64,000 bases of DNA from an uncultured virus (IMG/VR IMGVR_UViG_3300040974_000011) (Duplodnaviria; Heunggongvirae; Uroviricota; Caudoviricetes): IMG/VR virus record IMGVR_UViG_3300040974_000011, one strand, 5' to 3'. Shown here one piece after another: positions 5,144-63,830 of this stretch (positions are counted from its first letter, which is position 1; the number at the start of each line of letters is the position of its first letter). A model generated the notes under the pieces. The model searched no databases. It was not told the DNA's origin and saw only the letters and a list, made by a program, of their open reading frames with translations. The translations under genes were made by a program, and so were the position numbers.

Positions 5144-5247
5144 AACGTGTACGGACGACTGGATGTGAGCTGCGCTCGTGACGGGTGCGCCTGCCGGCCC
5201 GGCCCTCGTATGAGGGCGCATTGGAAAGTCGTCTCCGAAGTTCGGCG

Positions 5248-5318
5248 CTGATTGTAGCTCCCAGGGTAGAGCACCCGGTTGATCCGGGCGGTCGATGGTT
5301 CGAGTCCTTCCGGTCAGC
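5248..5318 (+). tRNA. tRNA-like element (aberrant 5-nt anticodon loop, no encoded CCA)
   Basis: Acceptor CTGATTG/CGGTCAG, TA-GCTC..GGTA..GAGC D arm, CCCGG-TTGAT-CCGGG arm, GATGG-TTCGAGT-CCTTC T arm. Confidence 0.7.
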
Positions 5319-5417
5319 GCCGGAACGCTCAGGTCGCTGATTGCGTGAGCTTCAGCGGGGACAAGCGCAGGCGTAGTGCCCCCTGCACCCTGAGCCCCTT
5401 TCAGCCGGTAGCCTCTC

Positions 5418-59245: not shown

Positions 59246-59659
59246 TCAACGAGAGGGGAAAGCTGGCCCAAACCACTTTTCGATTGGCTTTGATGCTCGG
59301 CGCTGGGGCTCAGCTTTTGCAAAGCCACGGCTTTGGATTTTCGGCTTGGTCGCTGCGGCAGTGATGCCGAGCTGCGCCCGCTTGCGTCGCTTGGCTTGAG
59401 CGGCTGCCGAGTGGTCGGCTGCGTCCTTCACCCGCTTGCAGGTCTCGTAGTGGGCCGGGCCGCGATTGCCGGCCGTGTCGGATCCGCCATTCTCAAGCGC
59501 GATTTCATGTTCCACGAACCAGCGCTGACGGACGCCATCAATCCGCTCGCCGCAGGTCACACAGATGCCCTTGGTCCGCTCCCACGCGGCAAGAACGTCG
59601 CGAGGGCTCAGGCGCTTACGGGCAGTGGTGCCGACATCTTCGCAGACGACGAAAGGCAT
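59246..59659 (-). CDS. HNH endonuclease-like protein
   Basis: CVTCG...VEHEIALENGGSD...N..PAH..C..K. Confidence 0.75.
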   Translation of the reverse strand: MPFVVCEDVGTTARKRLSPRDVLAAWERTKGICVTCGERIDGVRQRWFVEHEIALENGGSDTAGNRGPAHYETCKRVKDAADHSAAAQAKRRKRAQLGITAAATKPKIQSRGFAKAEPQRRASKPIEKWFGPAFPSR

Positions 59660-60117
59660 TAAGCAGCCCTCCGAATGCTCTGACGCAGCTTCGCCATCCG
59701 GTCGTAGAGGATGACGTTCACAGTGGCTGCGAGGTTTAGGCAGAAGGCGCTTGGGATCATCACCCTGCGCGGGCAGCGATCGAGTAATTCGCCACCAAGC
59801 GTCCCATCCTCTGGGCCGAAGATGTAGAAGGCACGCTGCGGATGCGTGAAGCTGGGCAACTCAGTTGCGCCCGGAACCAGATCAACAGCGACAGGCACAG
59901 TATCGAAGGGGATCAACGACCACAGGTCATCGCCGCGCAAAACTGGGATGTGCCGGTAAGCTTTCGTCACATCCTGACAGCTCGTGACCGGCGTGCGGTC
60001 ACCTTGGATAGCAACCAGCGATGCGCCGAAGACGTGGGCAGCGCGCATAACGCCGCCGACGTTCGCAGAGACCTTTGGCCGGACGAGGCCGATGGAGGCG
60101 AAGCCGCGGGCGCTCAT
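59659..60117 (-). CDS. SpoU/TrmH-family (SPOUT) RNA methyltransferase
   Basis: PK..ANVGGVMRAA..FG, YIFGPEDG, IPS..CLNLAAT...LYDR. Confidence 0.85.
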   Translation of the reverse strand: MSARGFASIGLVRPKVSANVGGVMRAAHVFGASLVAIQGDRTPVTSCQDVTKAYRHIPVLRGDDLWSLIPFDTVPVAVDLVPGATELPSFTHPQRAFYIFGPEDGTLGGELLDRCPRRVMIPSAFCLNLAATVNVILYDRMAKLRQSIRRAA

Positions 60118-60386: not shown

Positions 60387-60540
60387 GGCTCAAGCCTCGT
60401 CGGCGAGAGCCCGGCGCACGGCCGGAACGGTCTGCAGGGTGTAGAACAGAGCGCCGGTCAGGAAGGCGGCGGCGCCGAAGATGGGAACGAGGATCTGGGA
60501 CATCGCTGCGGCGCTCCATGGCGGCGGCTGATGTCAAATG

Positions 60541-60590
60541 TCTACGATTTGTAGCCACACCGGGTCAAGCCCGTTTCTACGATGTGTAGC
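60541..60590 (-). promoter_or_regulatory. PL-like promoter with two operators
   Basis: TCTACGATTTGTAGC (60541) and TCTACGATGTGTAGC (60576) flank minus-strand TTGACC (60563-60568). Confidence 0.75.
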
Positions 60591-60624
60591 AAGAAAATTT
60601 GCGTTCTGAGAACGGAGATGGTAC

Positions 60625-60663
60625 AAAAGAAAATGCCCCGGGAACCATGGGTTCGACCGGGGC
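60625..60663 (-). terminator. Rho-independent terminator downstream of cI
   Basis: GCCCCGG-GAACC/GGTTC-CCGGGGC hairpin followed on the minus strand by ATTTTCTTTT. Confidence 0.7.
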
Positions 60664-60742
60664 GACAAACGGGCCATGCTTGGCGGCTACCCGTCTGTGA
60701 AACGTGTAATAGCGCAACACGCGCGCGCGTTCCAGATCAATC

Positions 60743-61117
60743 GTCGCCACTCATAGCCAAGCGTAGGGTCCGCAGACGGCAAGTGCTGCGGGCTCAATCG
60801 CCGGGCGGTTAGTGACGCTGGCGGCGGACGGGCGCGAAAGCGTGCCGGGAGTAAGCGGCGACCAGGAGCGGGGTTCGCAGCCGCAGGGCACCTGAATGGG
60901 GGACGCCCGAACCCGAAGGCCACCGGCCTTTAAGAACCCTCTAGGGTTGCATCCCGGTGGTGGTGCGATCCGACGGTAAGCGGCGGTTGGCTCCGGCCTT
61001 CAGTCCCCCGTCCCAGGTCGCATCCGCCTAGGTGAACTGAGGGGTCACGGCCCTTTACTCAGTCCCTACGCGGGGCGACCTGTGGACGGGTCACAACGGT
61101 TCCACCAACCTTCAGGT
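60743..61117 (+). ncRNA. candidate large structured ncRNA
   Basis: Multiple nested and long-range helices, G-U wobbles and a GAAA tetraloop on the plus strand; no credible ORF. Confidence 0.6.
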
Positions 61118-61119
61118 AC

Positions 61120-61749
61120 TCAGTTAGATATCCGCTTCCACTGCTTCGCGGGGACGATGGACATGACTTCGGCGACCCGCTTCACGTCGACCTCGTCCTG
61201 ATCCGGGGCGTTGTGGCTGCCGATAGTGAAGGACCCGTCACGGGCGTGTTTCTTGAGGGTTTTTAGGAGATAGGTGCCGTCTCCGTCTTCTAGAACAACC
61301 TCTTGCCCAATCAGGGCTTCCGGCTCGCCATCGTACCATTTGGCGATGACGACTTCGCCGTCCTTGATCCGCGGGAACTGCGACTGCCCACGAGCCTCAA
61401 GGGCGAAGCAGCCTTCGGGAAGCGCGTAGGGAAGTTCGATTTCACCGAGCGCCAATTCGCCCTCCTCGACCCACCGGATGGCCTCACCCAAGCCAACCGT
61501 TCCGACCACGTCAACAACCGTAGATCGGTTCGCGGTTCCTTCCCCAGTTAAAAGCCAGCTCGCCGACACGCGGAATTTTCGGGCGTATTTGAACGCCTCC
61601 TCCTCGCTGTAATCGCGAGCGCCCGGCTCCCCAGCGCGTTCGTGGGCGTTGTAGGTCGATACTGCCACGTCCAGCGCGAATGCTGCGGCGCGGCCGGAAC
61701 GGTATCGGCGCTCTCGCGCCCACCGCAATCTCTCACCCTTCGTCTTCAT
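61120..61749 (-). CDS. cI: CI-like repressor (HTH + S24 peptidase)
   Basis: GERLRWARE HTH, VSASWLLTGEG, FALEARGQS.FP, YLLKTL. Confidence 0.9.
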   Translation of the reverse strand: MKTKGERLRWARERRYRSGRAAAFALDVAVSTYNAHERAGEPGARDYSEEEAFKYARKFRVSASWLLTGEGTANRSTVVDVVGTVGLGEAIRWVEEGELALGEIELPYALPEGCFALEARGQSQFPRIKDGEVVIAKWYDGEPEALIGQEVVLEDGDGTYLLKTLKKHARDGSFTIGSHNAPDQDEVDVKRVAEVMSIVPAKQWKRISN

Positions 61750-61786: not shown

Positions 61787-61815
61787 TTGATCGGAGTTGC
61801 TACATATCGTAGACA
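61787..61815 (+). promoter_or_regulatory. PR-like promoter overlapped by an operator
   Basis: TTGATC-N17-TAGACA; GCTACATATCGTAGA (61799-61813) is the reverse complement of the PL operator consensus. Confidence 0.75.
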
Positions 61816-61822
61816 CTCTGTC

Positions 61823-62113
61823 ATGAGCGCGGTTCAAGCCATCATCGCGAAGTTTGAGACGCCAGCGAAGTTCGGGCGGGCGATCAATTTGAAGGTCGTC
61901 AACCACGCGCACCAGATGTGGGACCGGATGTCGATCCCCGCGCTGCGGTGGCCAGACGTCGTCGAGGCCGCTTCTGAGCTAGGCATCAAAGGCGTCACAA
62001 TCGAAGCTCTCATGGCCGCCCACGTGGCCGACGAGCCCCTTCGCCGAGCAAAACTTCAGCAGACCCGCGCCCGTCAGAAGTCTTCAAGTCAGCCGGAGGC
62101 TCGTGCGTCATGA
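61823..62113 (+). CDS. cro: Cro-like protein
   Basis: Divergent from cI; II..F..PAKFGRAI...RMSIP..RW. Confidence 0.7.
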   Translation: MSAVQAIIAKFETPAKFGRAINLKVVNHAHQMWDRMSIPALRWPDVVEAASELGIKGVTIEALMAAHVADEPLRRAKLQQTRARQKSSSQPEARAS

Positions 62114-62252: not shown

Positions 62253-62549
62253 GTGAGTGGGATTGATAGCCCTACCGCTGGGCACCGGCTCGCCAGTTTC
62301 GTTGATCGCATCCTCGCGATTGGCCGAGAGCAGGACGAACTGAACGGCGTCAAGAAAGAGATCTACGCCGAAGCTGCCGGCGAGGGCTTCGACAAGACGG
62401 CTATGGGCGCGCTCGTTCGCGAGCTGCGCAAGGCCGAGAAGGACAGCGGCAAGGCGGCTGAGCAGGCCGAACTGCTGGATCTGTATCGCGACTCCTACCA
62501 TCGCGCCGTCTCGCACGTAGGCGCGCACATACGCGAGGCGGCGGAATGA
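62253..62549 (+). CDS. GapR/DUF2312-family DNA-binding protein
   Basis: LASFVDRI...KEIYAEAAGEGFD...ELRK...LLDLY. Confidence 0.85.
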   Translation: MSGIDSPTAGHRLASFVDRILAIGREQDELNGVKKEIYAEAAGEGFDKTAMGALVRELRKAEKDSGKAAEQAELLDLYRDSYHRAVSHVGAHIREAAE

Positions 62550-63320: not shown

Positions 63321-63830
63321 ATGTCTGGCTTCCGTACCTTTGAGACCAGCCGCGTGAGCTTCGGCGACAATCGCCCAAAGGCGCCGCTCGTGGATGCCGC
63401 TCTGGTGCGTCCGCCGATCAAGCGAGCGCCTGCGAAGCAATGGTCTGAGCCGAAGATATGTCAGAAGGGCTTCATCCCTCCGAAGCCCGTAACTCCTGAG
63501 GATTTTCAGCAGCCGTGTGCGTTCCCGTTGCGGCGGCTGATGGATCTGGTGTGCTACATCACACAGTTCCCGGCCGTGCATATTCGCGGACAGCGGCGTC
63601 TGGGCAATCTCGTCCGCGCTCGTCAGATCCTGTTCTGGCTCGCTAAGAACAATACCGAGGCGAGCTTTGTGCAGATCGGCCGCCTCGTCGGCGGCCGCGA
63701 TCACACCACGGTGATGCACGGAGTACGCCGCGTTCAGGCGGTCATTGATCGCCTGAATATTGAGGTCTCTGACTGCCCGGTCACGATGGCCGAGCGCCTT
63801 TGGCGTGCCGAATGGTCGAGGGGGAAATGA
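63321..63830 (+). CDS. DnaA C-terminal HTH domain protein
   Basis: RARQILFWL...SFVQIGRLVGGRDHTTVMHG. Confidence 0.85.
   Translation: MSGFRTFETSRVSFGDNRPKAPLVDAALVRPPIKRAPAKQWSEPKICQKGFIPPKPVTPEDFQQPCAFPLRRLMDLVCYITQFPAVHIRGQRRLGNLVRARQILFWLAKNNTEASFVQIGRLVGGRDHTTVMHGVRRVQAVIDRLNIEVSDCPVTMAERLWRAEWSRGK

What the first reader, a model, noticed from the sequence alone, without database searches (positions are those of the whole stretch)
60743..61117. Candidate large multi-domain structured ncRNA in the immunity region
Seen in an ORF-poor gap. Domain 1: GTCGCC-ACTC (60743-60752) pairs with GAGT..GGCGAC (60849-60862), enclosing three hairpins (60766-60795, 60799-60826, and a GAAA-capped 60829-60847). 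Domain 2: a long-range helix ACCTGAA (60890-60896)/TTCAGGT (61111-61117) encloses GGGGGAC/GTCCCCC (60898/61003), GAAGGCC/GGCCTTC (60915/60995), ACCGG/CCGGT around an AACCC-TCTA-GGGTT hairpin, and a long arm GTCC-CAGGTCGC...ACTGAG..CTCAGT...GCGACCTG-T-GGAC (61010-61087). G-U pairs and the GNRA loop favour the plus strand, convergent with cI and ending 2 nt from its stop. I recognise no RNase P, tmRNA, SRP, 6S or intron signature. Inference: an undescribed phage ncRNA (ribozyme-like, decoy or regulator of lysogeny). High GC inflates chance pairing, so covariation is the decisive test.
Basis: partly seen in the sequence, partly recalled or inferred. Interest (0 to 1): 0.85.

Follow-up and report, generated by a model that had tools for sequence, protein, structure and literature searches.

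The report
Large structured RNA beside phage repressor
A 350-400 base RNA with an intricate, evolutionarily conserved fold lies next to the repressor gene of a few temperate phages of Methylobacterium-like bacteria and matches no known RNA family, so it may be an unrecognised part of the switch between dormancy and lytic growth.

Summary
The gap between the cI-like repressor (61120-61749, minus) and the leftward early control region has no conserved ORF and no Rfam match. I found three independent homologs: a Methylorubrum suomiense prophage and two IMG/VR proviruses. All four have the layout cro / cI / RNA convergent with cI / terminators for the cI strand / early-left promoter.

In a four-sequence alignment, 104 base pairs are 98% canonical (400 of 408 cells). 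Of these, 35 covary on both sides. There are 39 G-U cells against 1 A-C cell, so the RNA is on the plus strand. Partner-slid controls give 37-45% canonical.

The fold has about 16 helices, a pseudoknot (P4 crossing P5) and a loop-loop helix in which 5 of 5 pairs covary.

The RNA block (67-76% identical) is the only thing all four mosaic prophages share, and their repressors differ.

Function is unknown. My best guess is a switch-gated RNA that needs no phage protein partner. Expression, RNA ends and promoter are unverified.

The parts
60767..61092 (+). Core of the structured RNA (helices P1 to P15 with two crossing interactions)
   Evidence: Four-sequence curated alignment: 104 pairs, 400 of 408 cells canonical, 35 pairs covary on both sides, 13 on one side, 39 G-U against 1 A-C. 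Pairwise identity 67-76%.
60767..60794 (+). P1 hairpin (60767-77 / 60783-94, one bulged G)
   Evidence: 11 pairs, 3 covary, 2 change on one side, 42 of 44 cells canonical.
60799..60826 (+). P2 hairpin (60799-807 / 60816-26) with an 8-base loop that is nearly invariant
   Evidence: 9 pairs, 2 covary, 36 of 36 cells canonical.
60829..60847 (+). P3 hairpin with a GAAA loop in 3 of 4 sequences; the outer stem is longer in the homologs
   Evidence: 10 pairs, 5 covary, 35 of 36 cells canonical.
60855..60884 (+). P4 (60855-59 / 60880-84), which crosses P5 and so forms a pseudoknot
   Evidence: 6 pairs, 3 covary, 23 of 24 cells canonical.
60871..60914 (+). P5 (60871-76 / 60909-14), enclosing P6 (60886-89 / 60905-08)
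   Evidence: P5: 6 pairs, 4 covary, 22 of 23 cells. P6: 4 pairs, 1 covaries, 16 of 16 cells.
60898..60941 (+). Loop-loop helix: P6 loop 60898-60902 with 60937-60941 inside P7
   Evidence: Found by a blind scan of all column pairs. 5 of 5 pairs covary, and all four sequences are canonical with four different strand pairs.
60920..60960 (+). P7 (60920-26 / 60954-60)
   Evidence: 7 pairs, 2 covary, 1 changes on one side, 28 of 28 cells. Two adjacent pairs take four different compensated combinations.
60967..61092 (+). P8 (60967-72 / 61087-92), which closes the 3' domain. Inside it lie P9 (60973-76 / 61008-11) and P10 (60980-91 / 60996-61006, UCCG loop, invariant).
   Evidence: P8: 6 pairs, 1 covaries. 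P9: 4 pairs, 2 covary. P10: 7 pairs, none vary.
61012..61085 (+). Long irregular arm P11-P15 (61012-21/61075-85, 61024-27/61070-73, 61029-32/61065-68, 61036-41/61058-63, 61042-44/61051-53). Its 3' strand 61072-61087 is invariant.
   Evidence: 29 pairs, 7 covary, 7 change on one side, 111 of 114 cells canonical. Invariant runs are listed.
61093..61117 (+). C-rich, G-poor 3' tail ending 2 bases before the cI stop codon. The true 3' end is unknown.
   Evidence: Conserved in the alignment. One homolog (L242) has a short hairpin and a run of six T here, another has TTCTT, and the window has none.
60730..60766 (+). Leader of uncertain status. 60730-33 can pair with 60865-68 (P0, tentative). 60736-60766 varies in sequence and length.
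   Evidence: P0: 4 pairs, 1 covaries, 16 of 16 cells. The same conserved block fits a minus-strand -35 element instead.
60635..60663 (-). Intrinsic terminator T1 for the cI strand (stem 60635-41 / 60657-63, U run 60633-60625 on the minus strand)
   Evidence: The stem is kept with divergent loops and one compensated pair in all four. The T run follows only on the minus strand.
60602..60614 (-). Second terminator-like hairpin T2 with a T run (window and L081 only)
   Evidence: Terminator scan. The hairpin is kept with a different sequence in L081 and is not evident in L242.
60666..60697 (-). Conserved hairpin H just upstream of T1 on the minus strand
   Evidence: 8 pairs. One pair is G-U on the minus strand (A-C on plus) in all four, and one pair is compensated in L244.
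60707..60735 (-). Promoter-like pair of hexamers on the minus strand (-35 60735-30, -10 60712-07), firing into H and T1
   Evidence: The 17-base spacing and the 9 bases from the -10 to H are kept in 4 of 4 while the spacer sequence diverges. This is a motif reading only.
60599..60627 (+). Promoter-like pair of hexamers on the plus strand (-35 60599-604, -10 60622-27), candidate promoter of the RNA
   Evidence: 17-base spacing in 4 of 4. The hexamers are good in 3 of 4 and the -10 is poor in L244. The consensus scan did not flag it.
60542..60589 (.). Two operator-like palindromes CTAC-N5-GTAG (60542-54 and 60577-89) flanking the leftward early promoter. A third lies at 61800-61812 next to cro.
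   Evidence: Read from the sequence. The same half-sites with a different centre occur in L081.
61120..61749 (-). cI-like repressor with an S24 peptidase domain, convergent with the RNA
   Evidence: Pfam PF00717. Homologs start at the second Met of the ORF.
61823..62113 (+). cro-like first gene of the rightward operon
   Evidence: Position and divergent orientation. 40-42% identical ORFs at the same place in L081 and L244. No Pfam match for the window protein; the L244 counterpart (L244 1280-1546) gives a sub-threshold YdaS match (24.1 bits against a cut-off of 30).

Best explanation
Shown: this is a gene for a non-coding RNA of about 350 bases (core 60767-61092 plus tail to about 61117). It may reach about 480 bases if it starts at the candidate promoter near 60630. 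It is read from the plus strand and folds into three groups of helices tied by a pseudoknot (P4 crossing P5) and a loop-loop helix. It is a conserved cassette of the immunity region of a small group of temperate alphaproteobacterial phages. It always lies tail-to-tail with a cI-type repressor gene.

Inferred: expression of the RNA is gated by the lysogeny switch.
- Repressor transcripts have no terminator of their own after the stop codon. They run antisense across the whole RNA gene and stop at the tandem terminators beyond it.
- In a lysogen, therefore, repressor transcription should suppress the RNA by collision and by duplex formation.
- When repressor transcription is low (infection, induction) the RNA should accumulate.
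- Where the RNA is not terminated, its transcription would run antisense into cI.

The folded RNA then acts without any phage-specific protein. It would act on a conserved host component or by chemistry of its own. This would explain why it is kept at 67-76% identity while repressors and nearly all other genes are exchanged.
For: Structure and strand:
- 400 of 408 cells are canonical, 35 of 104 pairs covary, and there are 39 G-U against 1 A-C. Slid controls give 37-45% canonical and 3-5 covarying pairs. 0 of 2000 permutations reach 35.
- The consensus fold has z -11.2 on plus and -6.4 on minus.
- Independent test: helices derived from window plus L081 alone were 84 of 103 (L242) and 80 of 103 (L244) canonical in an untouched MAFFT alignment.

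Not coding: six of the seven indels are single bases and one is 5 bases, and there is no 3-base period.

Context:
- All four loci have the same order and orientation.
- No terminator-like site lies between the cI stop and the RNA in the window. The terminators for that strand lie at 60602-60663.

No protein partner:
- No window ORF of 60 aa or more has a blastp hit (E < 1e-6) in all three other prophages; none hits more than 2 of the 3.
- The repressors are 55% identical (L081; 56% in the ORF-level blastp), 26% identical (L244), and not alignable (L238/L242, E 2.9).

Weak hint of constraint: in run X15 the contig over 60790-61081 (depth 7.7) has 1 other letter in 292. The contig over 60450-60741 (depth 6.0) has 8 in 292.
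Against: - No strand-specific expression data, so neither the transcript nor its ends have been seen.
- The plus-strand promoter is only a motif reading, poor in 1 of 4, and the consensus scan missed it.
- An elaborate fold is not needed for antisense or collision effects, so the gating part does not explain the structure.
- One homolog (L242) has a hairpin plus a run of six T at the RNA's 3' end. That would stop read-through into cI.
- The same facts fit an RNA made in lysogens.
- There are only four sequences, and the alignment needed seven row edits in five places to fit the helices.
- No complementary target of 13 bases or more exists elsewhere in the window. There are 5 matches of 12 bases against about 3 by my own estimate of the chance expectation.
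Confidence: 0.35

Rival explanations
1. A moron-like cassette expressed in the lysogen. The RNA is made from its own promoter during lysogeny and acts in trans for the benefit of the host or prophage, for example as a decoy, sponge or scaffold in defence against other phages, or as a regulator of host genes.
For: - It sits in the slot between the repressor gene and the early-left promoter. In four more distant cI relatives (L003, L152, L083, L154) that slot holds a roughly 210-aa ORF with a hydrophobic N-terminal stretch (my reading of the translations), co-oriented with cI.
- It moves among otherwise unrelated prophages as a unit.
- It needs no phage protein.
Against: - It is oriented against the repressor transcript with no terminator between them, which would hamper expression in a lysogen.
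- No trans target of 13 bases or more exists in the phage. Host targets could not be searched because no genome is held for the window.
Confidence: 0.25
2. A sensor or catalytic RNA. The fold binds a small molecule or host factor, or cleaves or ligates itself. This decides whether plus-strand transcription ends at the tail or goes on antisense into cI and towards cro.
For: - Crossing helices, invariant unpaired runs (60887-96, 60976-84) and 77 invariant unpaired columns suggest a compact tertiary core.
- The tail carries a terminator-like hairpin plus T run in one homolog and is C-rich and G-poor in all.
- An alternative local hairpin overlaps the 5' strand of P7 in all four. This is my own reading of the rows printed; no call tested it.
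Against: - At about 330 bases the core is much larger than known aptamers (recalled).
- No ribozyme or riboswitch family matches.
- No conserved expression platform is seen in 2 of 4.
Confidence: 0.15
3. A primer-type RNA of a replication origin under antisense control, built like ColE1 RNA II and RNA I. A long structured plus-strand RNA has its 5' part overlapped by a roughly 75-base minus-strand RNA (hairpin H plus T1) made from the promoter-like site at 60735-60707.
For: - Face-to-face promoter-like motifs about 100 bases apart, each with conserved 17-base spacing.
- A small hairpin-plus-terminator unit antisense to the 5' part of a long non-coding RNA.
- No phage protein is needed.
Against: - Both promoters are motif readings only.
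- The DNA beyond the RNA's 3' end is repressor coding sequence that differs among the phages, so there is no conserved origin DNA.
- The window phage carries its own replication module with a DnaA-C-like protein.
- Hairpin H and T1 are explained just as well as the repressor's terminator.
Confidence: 0.05
4. The structure belongs to the minus strand. It would be a long folded 3' untranslated region of the repressor mRNA that stabilises or regulates it.
For: - Repressor transcripts should cover the region, and the terminators for that strand lie beyond it.
- Hairpin H has a G-U pair only on the minus strand.
- The minus strand also folds better than shuffles (z -6.4).
Against: - Within the 104 pairs there are 39 G-U cells against 1 A-C cell on the plus strand. 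With P0 and the small P7i pairs still counted (105 pairs), mirroring the helices to the minus strand drops them from 98.1% to 87.4% canonical and leaves 1 pair, instead of 15, with a compatible one-sided change.
- Plus beats minus in every fold comparison.
Confidence: 0.03
5. No functional RNA: a decayed protein gene, a DNA-level site, or chance pairing in GC-rich DNA.
For: High GC inflates chance pairing. The single-sequence z is only -2.7.
Against: - Covariation, and conservation above that of all neighbouring genes.
- No similarity to the protein that fills the slot in relatives: best tblastn E 0.02 over short stretches.
- No 3-base periodicity.
Confidence: 0.02

Closest known systems
GOLLD and ROOL (large ornate RNAs often carried by prophages; Rfam families)
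   Same: A large, intricately folded non-coding RNA with pseudoknots, carried by temperate phages, with no coding capacity, no obligatory protein partner and no known function. (The properties of GOLLD and ROOL are recalled; only the search listing and abstract of bioRxiv 10.1101/2024.12.08.627333 were seen.)
   Different: No sequence or structure match to either model. It is smaller, at about 350 bases. It is found in Alphaproteobacteria-type GC-rich prophages. It has a fixed position and orientation next to the repressor gene, which is not a recalled feature of GOLLD or ROOL.
Cis-antisense RNAs of phage switches (lambda OOP against cII, P22 sar against ant)
   Same: It is encoded in the immunity region, convergent with a regulator of lysogeny, so that the two transcription units overlap or collide.
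   Different: Those RNAs are about 70 bases, simple hairpins that act by pairing with the coding end of their target (recalled). This one is about five times longer, with a conserved tertiary-type fold. It overlaps only the untranslated trailer of the repressor transcript unless it reads through.
ColE1 RNA II / RNA I
   Same: It would be a long structured non-coding sense RNA whose 5' part is overlapped by a short hairpin-rich antisense RNA from a facing promoter, if both promoter-like motifs are real.
   Different: There is no conserved origin DNA at the 3' end. It is a phage rather than a plasmid, and the host group is unrelated. Neither transcript has been shown. It was not compared by model because RNA II is not an Rfam family as far as I recall.
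Immunity RNAs of P4 (CI RNA) and P1/P7/N15 (c4 family, Rfam C4)
   Same: RNA, not protein, as a component of phage immunity control.
   Different: Those are short processed antisense RNAs with matching target sites in the phage (recalled). Here there is no Rfam C4 match and no complementary target of 13 bases or more in the window. A protein repressor is present.
HK022 put RNA (cis-acting antiterminator RNA)
   Same: A folded phage RNA that could act on host RNA polymerase without a phage protein. Plus-strand transcription through this RNA points towards the cro operon.
   Different: put is about 70 bases, two stem-loops, and lies directly downstream of the early promoters (recalled). Here the RNA is separated from the rightward operon by the whole antisense repressor gene.

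Membership tests
Any Rfam 15 family (4227 models, including RNase P, tmRNA, 6S, SRP, group I and II introns, GOLLD, ROOL, HEARO, OLE, raiA, C4, riboswitches, small ribozymes) | Match to the family covariance model at or above its gathering score | tested here: not met
   0 matches at gathering over the whole window. At E up to 10 over 60450-61250 there are 4 weak hits (E 2 to 8.2), all on the minus strand and all far below gathering. Nothing lies within the RNA in L081, L242 or L244.
tmRNA / tRNA-like | tRNA-like acceptor domain and tag reading frame detectable by ARAGORN | tested here: not met
   ARAGORN finds only tRNA-Ser at 5247-5321 in the window.
Group I intron | Insertion in a host gene with flanking exons; core P3-P7 pseudoknot with a P4-P6 domain between its strands | tested here: not met
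   It is intergenic with no interrupted ORF. There is no Intron_gpI match even at E 10. A pseudoknot of the order 5'-5'-3'-hairpin-3' exists (P4, P5, P6), but only about 11 bases lie where P4-P6 would be.
Type I toxin-antitoxin (hok/sok-like) | A conserved small hydrophobic ORF in the long structured RNA, and an antisense RNA to its leader | tested here: not met
   No ORF is conserved in frame and length among the four (and the indels). The only shared start (61082) gives 39, 59 and, by my own reading of the L244 row (it is too short to be listed), about 16 residues of non-hydrophobic sequence. The antisense RNA is only a motif prediction.
Cis-antisense switch RNA (OOP/sar type) | Transcript overlapping the coding sequence of the convergent regulator | tested here: inconclusive
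   The conserved RNA ends 2 to about 70 bases short of the repressor stop codon. Overlap would need read-through, which cannot be read from sequence.
ColE1-type primer RNA with antisense control | Conserved origin DNA at the RNA 3' end; sense and antisense promoters facing each other | tested here: inconclusive
   Facing promoter-like motifs with conserved spacing are seen. No conserved DNA lies beyond the tail. Priming is not testable with these tools.
Protein-coding gene or its remnant | Conserved reading frame, 3-base periodicity of substitutions, similarity to proteins in the same slot | tested here: not met
   Mismatches by phase are 31/37/37 and six of the seven indels are single bases. 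tblastn with the slot proteins of six relatives gives a best E of 0.02.

The most novel reading that the evidence does not exclude
This is a new class of large catalytic or ligand-sensing RNA that serves as a third, RNA-only component of a temperate-phage genetic switch. It would be silenced by repressor transcription in the lysogen and released when that transcription falls. It would then act on a conserved host machine (RNA polymerase, ribosome, RNase or the SOS apparatus) to commit the phage to lytic growth. A small antisense RNA from the facing promoter would act as a second lock.
Probability: 0.2. Interest if true: 0.9.

Novelty: categorically new. Interest (0 to 1): 0.75.

Why it matters
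Bacterial and phage RNAs that are both large and intricately folded are few. By recollection, most that have been understood turned out to be ribozymes or parts of major cellular machines. This one has strong covariation in only four sequences, crossing helices, and a fixed place in the best-studied kind of genetic switch.

It is more conserved than the repressor it sits beside, and it is the only thing these mosaic prophages share. That points to a function that does not depend on the phage's own proteins.

If it takes part in the lysis-lysogeny decision, it would add an RNA component to the repressor/Cro paradigm. If not, it is a new phage accessory RNA class with an isolated, named bacterial host (Methylorubrum suomiense DSM 14458) in which to test it.

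Tried and rejected
Searches that found no homolog:
- blastn of the gap against the phage collection, of 7.5 kb around it (one unrelated 130-base hit) and against plasmids.
- The repressor as a single protein in viral and genome contigs.
- Three DNA patterns in viral contigs found no further record (no match; the pattern matched only the record of L238/L242, already found).
- Whole-genome DNA searches around the M. suomiense genome. Family: 401 genomes, only G001 with a long match, the other 41 hits being 21-75 bases in GC-rich stretches. Genus: 1 of 146. Order: G001 plus two short hits of 28 and 53 bases in 401. Class: G001 plus one 33-base hit in 401. These are samples, so the result is "not found in those searched".
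- Covariance model R1 of the 3' domain over 212 sources and an nhmmer profile over all 264 loci. Neither found a further homolog.

Earlier scan notes held nothing. No whole genome is held for the window.

Sequencing runs: no listed holder is on record as RNA. The four runs guessed to be RNA gave only short contigs. Their uncovered parts and contig ends (for example a 228-base contig at 60866-61093 in X19, and contigs starting at 60609 and 60621) cannot be read as transcript ends or levels.

Other leads that failed:
- The SpoU methylase of the early-left operon as a partner: not found in the other three.
- A sigma-70-type plus-strand promoter between 60665 and 60766: no consistent candidate.
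- Trans targets in the phage: none of 13 bases or more.
- My own small hairpin P7i, replaced by the loop-loop helix.
- Pairing of the variable leader with 60849-52: complementary 4-base stretches exist but at shifting positions. This is by eye on the rows and I left it out.

Literature: three full-text searches and passages of one preprint gave no description of such an RNA.

Full report
**Setting.** The window looks like one GC-rich (about 64%) temperate phage genome. The finding lies in a lambda-like immunity region.
- A cI-like repressor with an S24 peptidase domain lies at 61120-61749 on the minus strand.
- A divergent cro-like gene starts at 61823. It is followed by GapR-like and DnaA-C-like genes on the plus strand.
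- To the left is a long minus-strand early operon: a small ORF at 60390-60503 that looks hydrophobic (my reading of the translation), a SpoU methylase, HNH, NinB and ERF.
- Palindromes of the form CTAC-N5-GTAG lie at 60542-54 and 60577-89 beside the leftward promoter, and at 61800-12 beside cro. I read them as operators.
- The 560 bases between the left operators and the repressor stop codon hold only ORFs of 33-78 aa.

**Is it known?** No.
- Rfam 15 gives nothing at gathering score in the whole window.
- Over 60450-61250 there are only four chance-level hits (E 2 to 8.2), all on the minus strand.
- ARAGORN finds no tmRNA.
- The three homologous loci give no Rfam hit inside the RNA.
- Three literature searches and one preprint check found no description.

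**Homologs.**
- The phage and plasmid collections hold nothing similar.
- A profile of repressor relatives brought in 205 loci.
- Among these, only the window's own contig, a 99% identical fragment, and one prophage of Methylorubrum suomiense (L081) carry the region. L081 is 68% identical over 566 bases, at the same place downstream of a 55% identical repressor.
- Blocks conserved between these two were used as exact patterns in IMG/VR. They found two proviruses, L238/L242 (72% over 508 bases) and L244 (68% over 506 bases).
- Sampling 1,349 species genomes around M. suomiense (family, genus, order, class) found it only in that genome.
- Near-identical copies occur in 20 listed sequencing runs from 11 studies.

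**Structure.**
- Single-sequence folding is only modestly better than shuffles.
- With two sequences the consensus fold is far better than column shuffles on the plus strand (z -7.2) and much less so on the minus strand (z -2.9). The consensus energies are -156.7 and -121.3 kcal/mol.
- As an independent test I took the helices derived from window plus L081 alone. I looked them up in the two IMG/VR sequences in a plain MAFFT alignment. 84 of 103 and 80 of 103 pairs were canonical, with new compensated changes. The failures clustered where MAFFT had misplaced indels.
- I then re-placed gaps (seven row edits in five places, no letters changed) and counted.
  - Without the tentative P0 there are 104 pairs, and 400 of 408 cells are canonical.
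  - 35 pairs changed on both sides, 13 changed on one side, and 51 are invariant.
  - There are 39 G-U cells against 1 A-C cell.
  - Sliding the 3' partners by 1-3 columns gives 37-45% canonical and 3-5 covarying pairs.
  - Permuting partners among sequences gives a mean of 13.7 and a maximum of 23 covarying pairs, and 0 of 2000 reach 35.
- An earlier count still held P0 and a small hairpin P7i that I later dropped (105 pairs). In that count, the same helices mirrored to the minus strand fall from 98.1% to 87.4% canonical.
- The four-sequence consensus fold has z -11.2 on plus and -6.4 on minus.
- Caveats: there are four sequences, the alignment was tuned to the helices, and the permutation ignores relatedness.

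**The fold (window coordinates).**
- Three hairpins: P1, P2 and P3.
- P4 (60855-59/60880-84) crosses P5 (60871-76/60909-14), making a pseudoknot. Both have strong covariation (3 of 6 and 4 of 6 pairs).
- P6 lies inside P5.
- P7 is 60920-26/60954-60.
- A blind scan of all column pairs turned up a loop-loop helix between the P6 loop (60898-902) and 60937-41 inside P7. All five of its pairs covary.
- The 3' domain is closed by P8 (60967-72/61087-92). It holds P9, an invariant P10 with a UCCG loop, and the long arm P11-P15.
- 190 of 362 core columns are invariant, 77 of them unpaired, including a 16-base run at 61072-87.
- A C-rich tail runs to 61117, 2 bases from the repressor stop codon.

Four of its long-range helices and the small TCTA hairpin are not conserved.

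**Surroundings of the RNA gene.**
- On the minus strand, beyond the 5' side of the RNA, lie a conserved hairpin (60666-97, with a G-U pair only on the minus strand and a compensated pair in L244) and an intrinsic terminator (60635-63 plus a U run). In the window and L081 there is a second terminator (60602-14).
- No terminator-like site follows the repressor stop codon. Repressor transcripts should therefore cross the RNA gene antisense and end at these terminators.
- Two promoter-like hexamer pairs keep a 17-base spacing while their spacers diverge.
  - One is on the plus strand at 60599-627, just left of the terminator hairpin. It is good in 3 of 4.
  - One is on the minus strand at 60735-707, always 9 bases from the conserved hairpin, in 4 of 4.
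- If both are real, a long plus-strand RNA of about 480 bases and a roughly 75-base minus-strand RNA face each other. Neither is proven. No consistent plus-strand promoter lies between 60665 and 60766.

**What travels with it.** Nothing.
- The repressors beside it are 55% identical, 26% identical, and not alignable to the window's. All are HTH proteins; an S24 domain is scored in the window's, L081's and L244's, though below Pfam's cut-off in the last two, and not in L238's.
- I compared all window ORFs of 60 aa or more with the two whole provirus records (49 and 61 kb, estimated 78-79% complete) and 80 kb around the M. suomiense copy. None has a hit in all three.
- The RNA block, at 67-76% identity, is thus the best conserved and only common element.
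- In more distant repressor relatives the same slot holds a roughly 210-aa ORF with a hydrophobic N-terminal stretch (my reading), co-oriented with the repressor and unrelated to this region.

**Explanation.**
- Shown: a conserved, non-coding, plus-strand RNA fold with crossing helices, in a fixed position convergent with a repressor gene.
- Inferred: it is an independently acting RNA whose expression is gated by the switch, because repressor transcription runs through it. It works on host machinery or by its own chemistry, because no phage protein is conserved with it. I give this 0.35.
- Rivals: a lysogen-expressed moron RNA (0.25), a sensor or ribozyme that controls read-through into the repressor gene (0.15), a primer-type RNA under antisense control (0.05), a minus-strand 3' untranslated region (0.03), and no function (0.02).
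- The sequencing runs gave no usable evidence on expression. The one exception is a weak hint of constraint: 1 difference in 292 bases inside the RNA, against 8 in 292 just to its left, in one run.

**Verdict.** It is a new RNA class by every test available here. It is rare and narrowly distributed, with unknown function, and it sits in a place where function can be tested directly.

Noticed in passing
window 60625-60735, minus strand: A promoter-like motif (60735-30 / 60712-07, 17-base spacer) is followed after 9 bases by a conserved hairpin (60697-60666) and an intrinsic terminator (60663-60635 plus U run). All are kept in four phages. It could be a roughly 75-base small RNA antisense to the 5' part of a long plus-strand transcript, or simply the repressor's terminator module. 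The weak Rfam hits sX13, ncS54 and ncS037 (E 2 to 8) fall here.
   Followed up: partly
window 60599-60627, plus strand: A candidate promoter for the large RNA (hexamers 17 bases apart) lies back to back with the leftward early promoter, with the operator-like palindrome 60577-89 between them. In L244 and L242 its -35 lies inside repeated operator-like motifs.
   Followed up: partly
L003 3666-4301, L152 3663-4295, L083 3606-4268, L154 3691-4302: In more distant relatives of the repressor, the slot taken here by the RNA holds a conserved ORF of about 210 aa with one hydrophobic N-terminal stretch (my reading of the translations), co-oriented with the repressor. It is a possible lysogen-expressed exclusion protein. 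Pfam was not run on it.
   Followed up: no
L244 4050-4150, plus strand: A sub-threshold match to the Twister-sister ribozyme model (28.1 bits against gathering 34, E 0.016) lies inside an ORF of the early operon of that provirus.
   Followed up: no
window 59659-60117, minus strand: A SpoU-family RNA methyltransferase sits in the early-left operon close to the RNA. It was not found in the other three prophages, so it is not a conserved partner.
   Followed up: yes
window 60600-61130: Near-identical copies of this stretch are held by 20 listed sequencing runs from 11 studies. Their labels are very different (marine, factory, groundwater and plant metagenomes and three coded organisms). This suggests a widespread host, or one that often turns up as a guest in other samples.
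   Followed up: no
window 5247-5321, plus strand: A single tRNA-Ser (anticodon TGA) lies near the left end of the window. It could be a phage tRNA or an attachment-site tRNA.
   Followed up: no
window 62256-62549 and 63321-63830, plus strand: The rightward operon encodes a GapR-like DNA-binding protein and a protein with the C-terminal DNA-binding domain of DnaA. The latter is probably the replication initiator.
   Followed up: no
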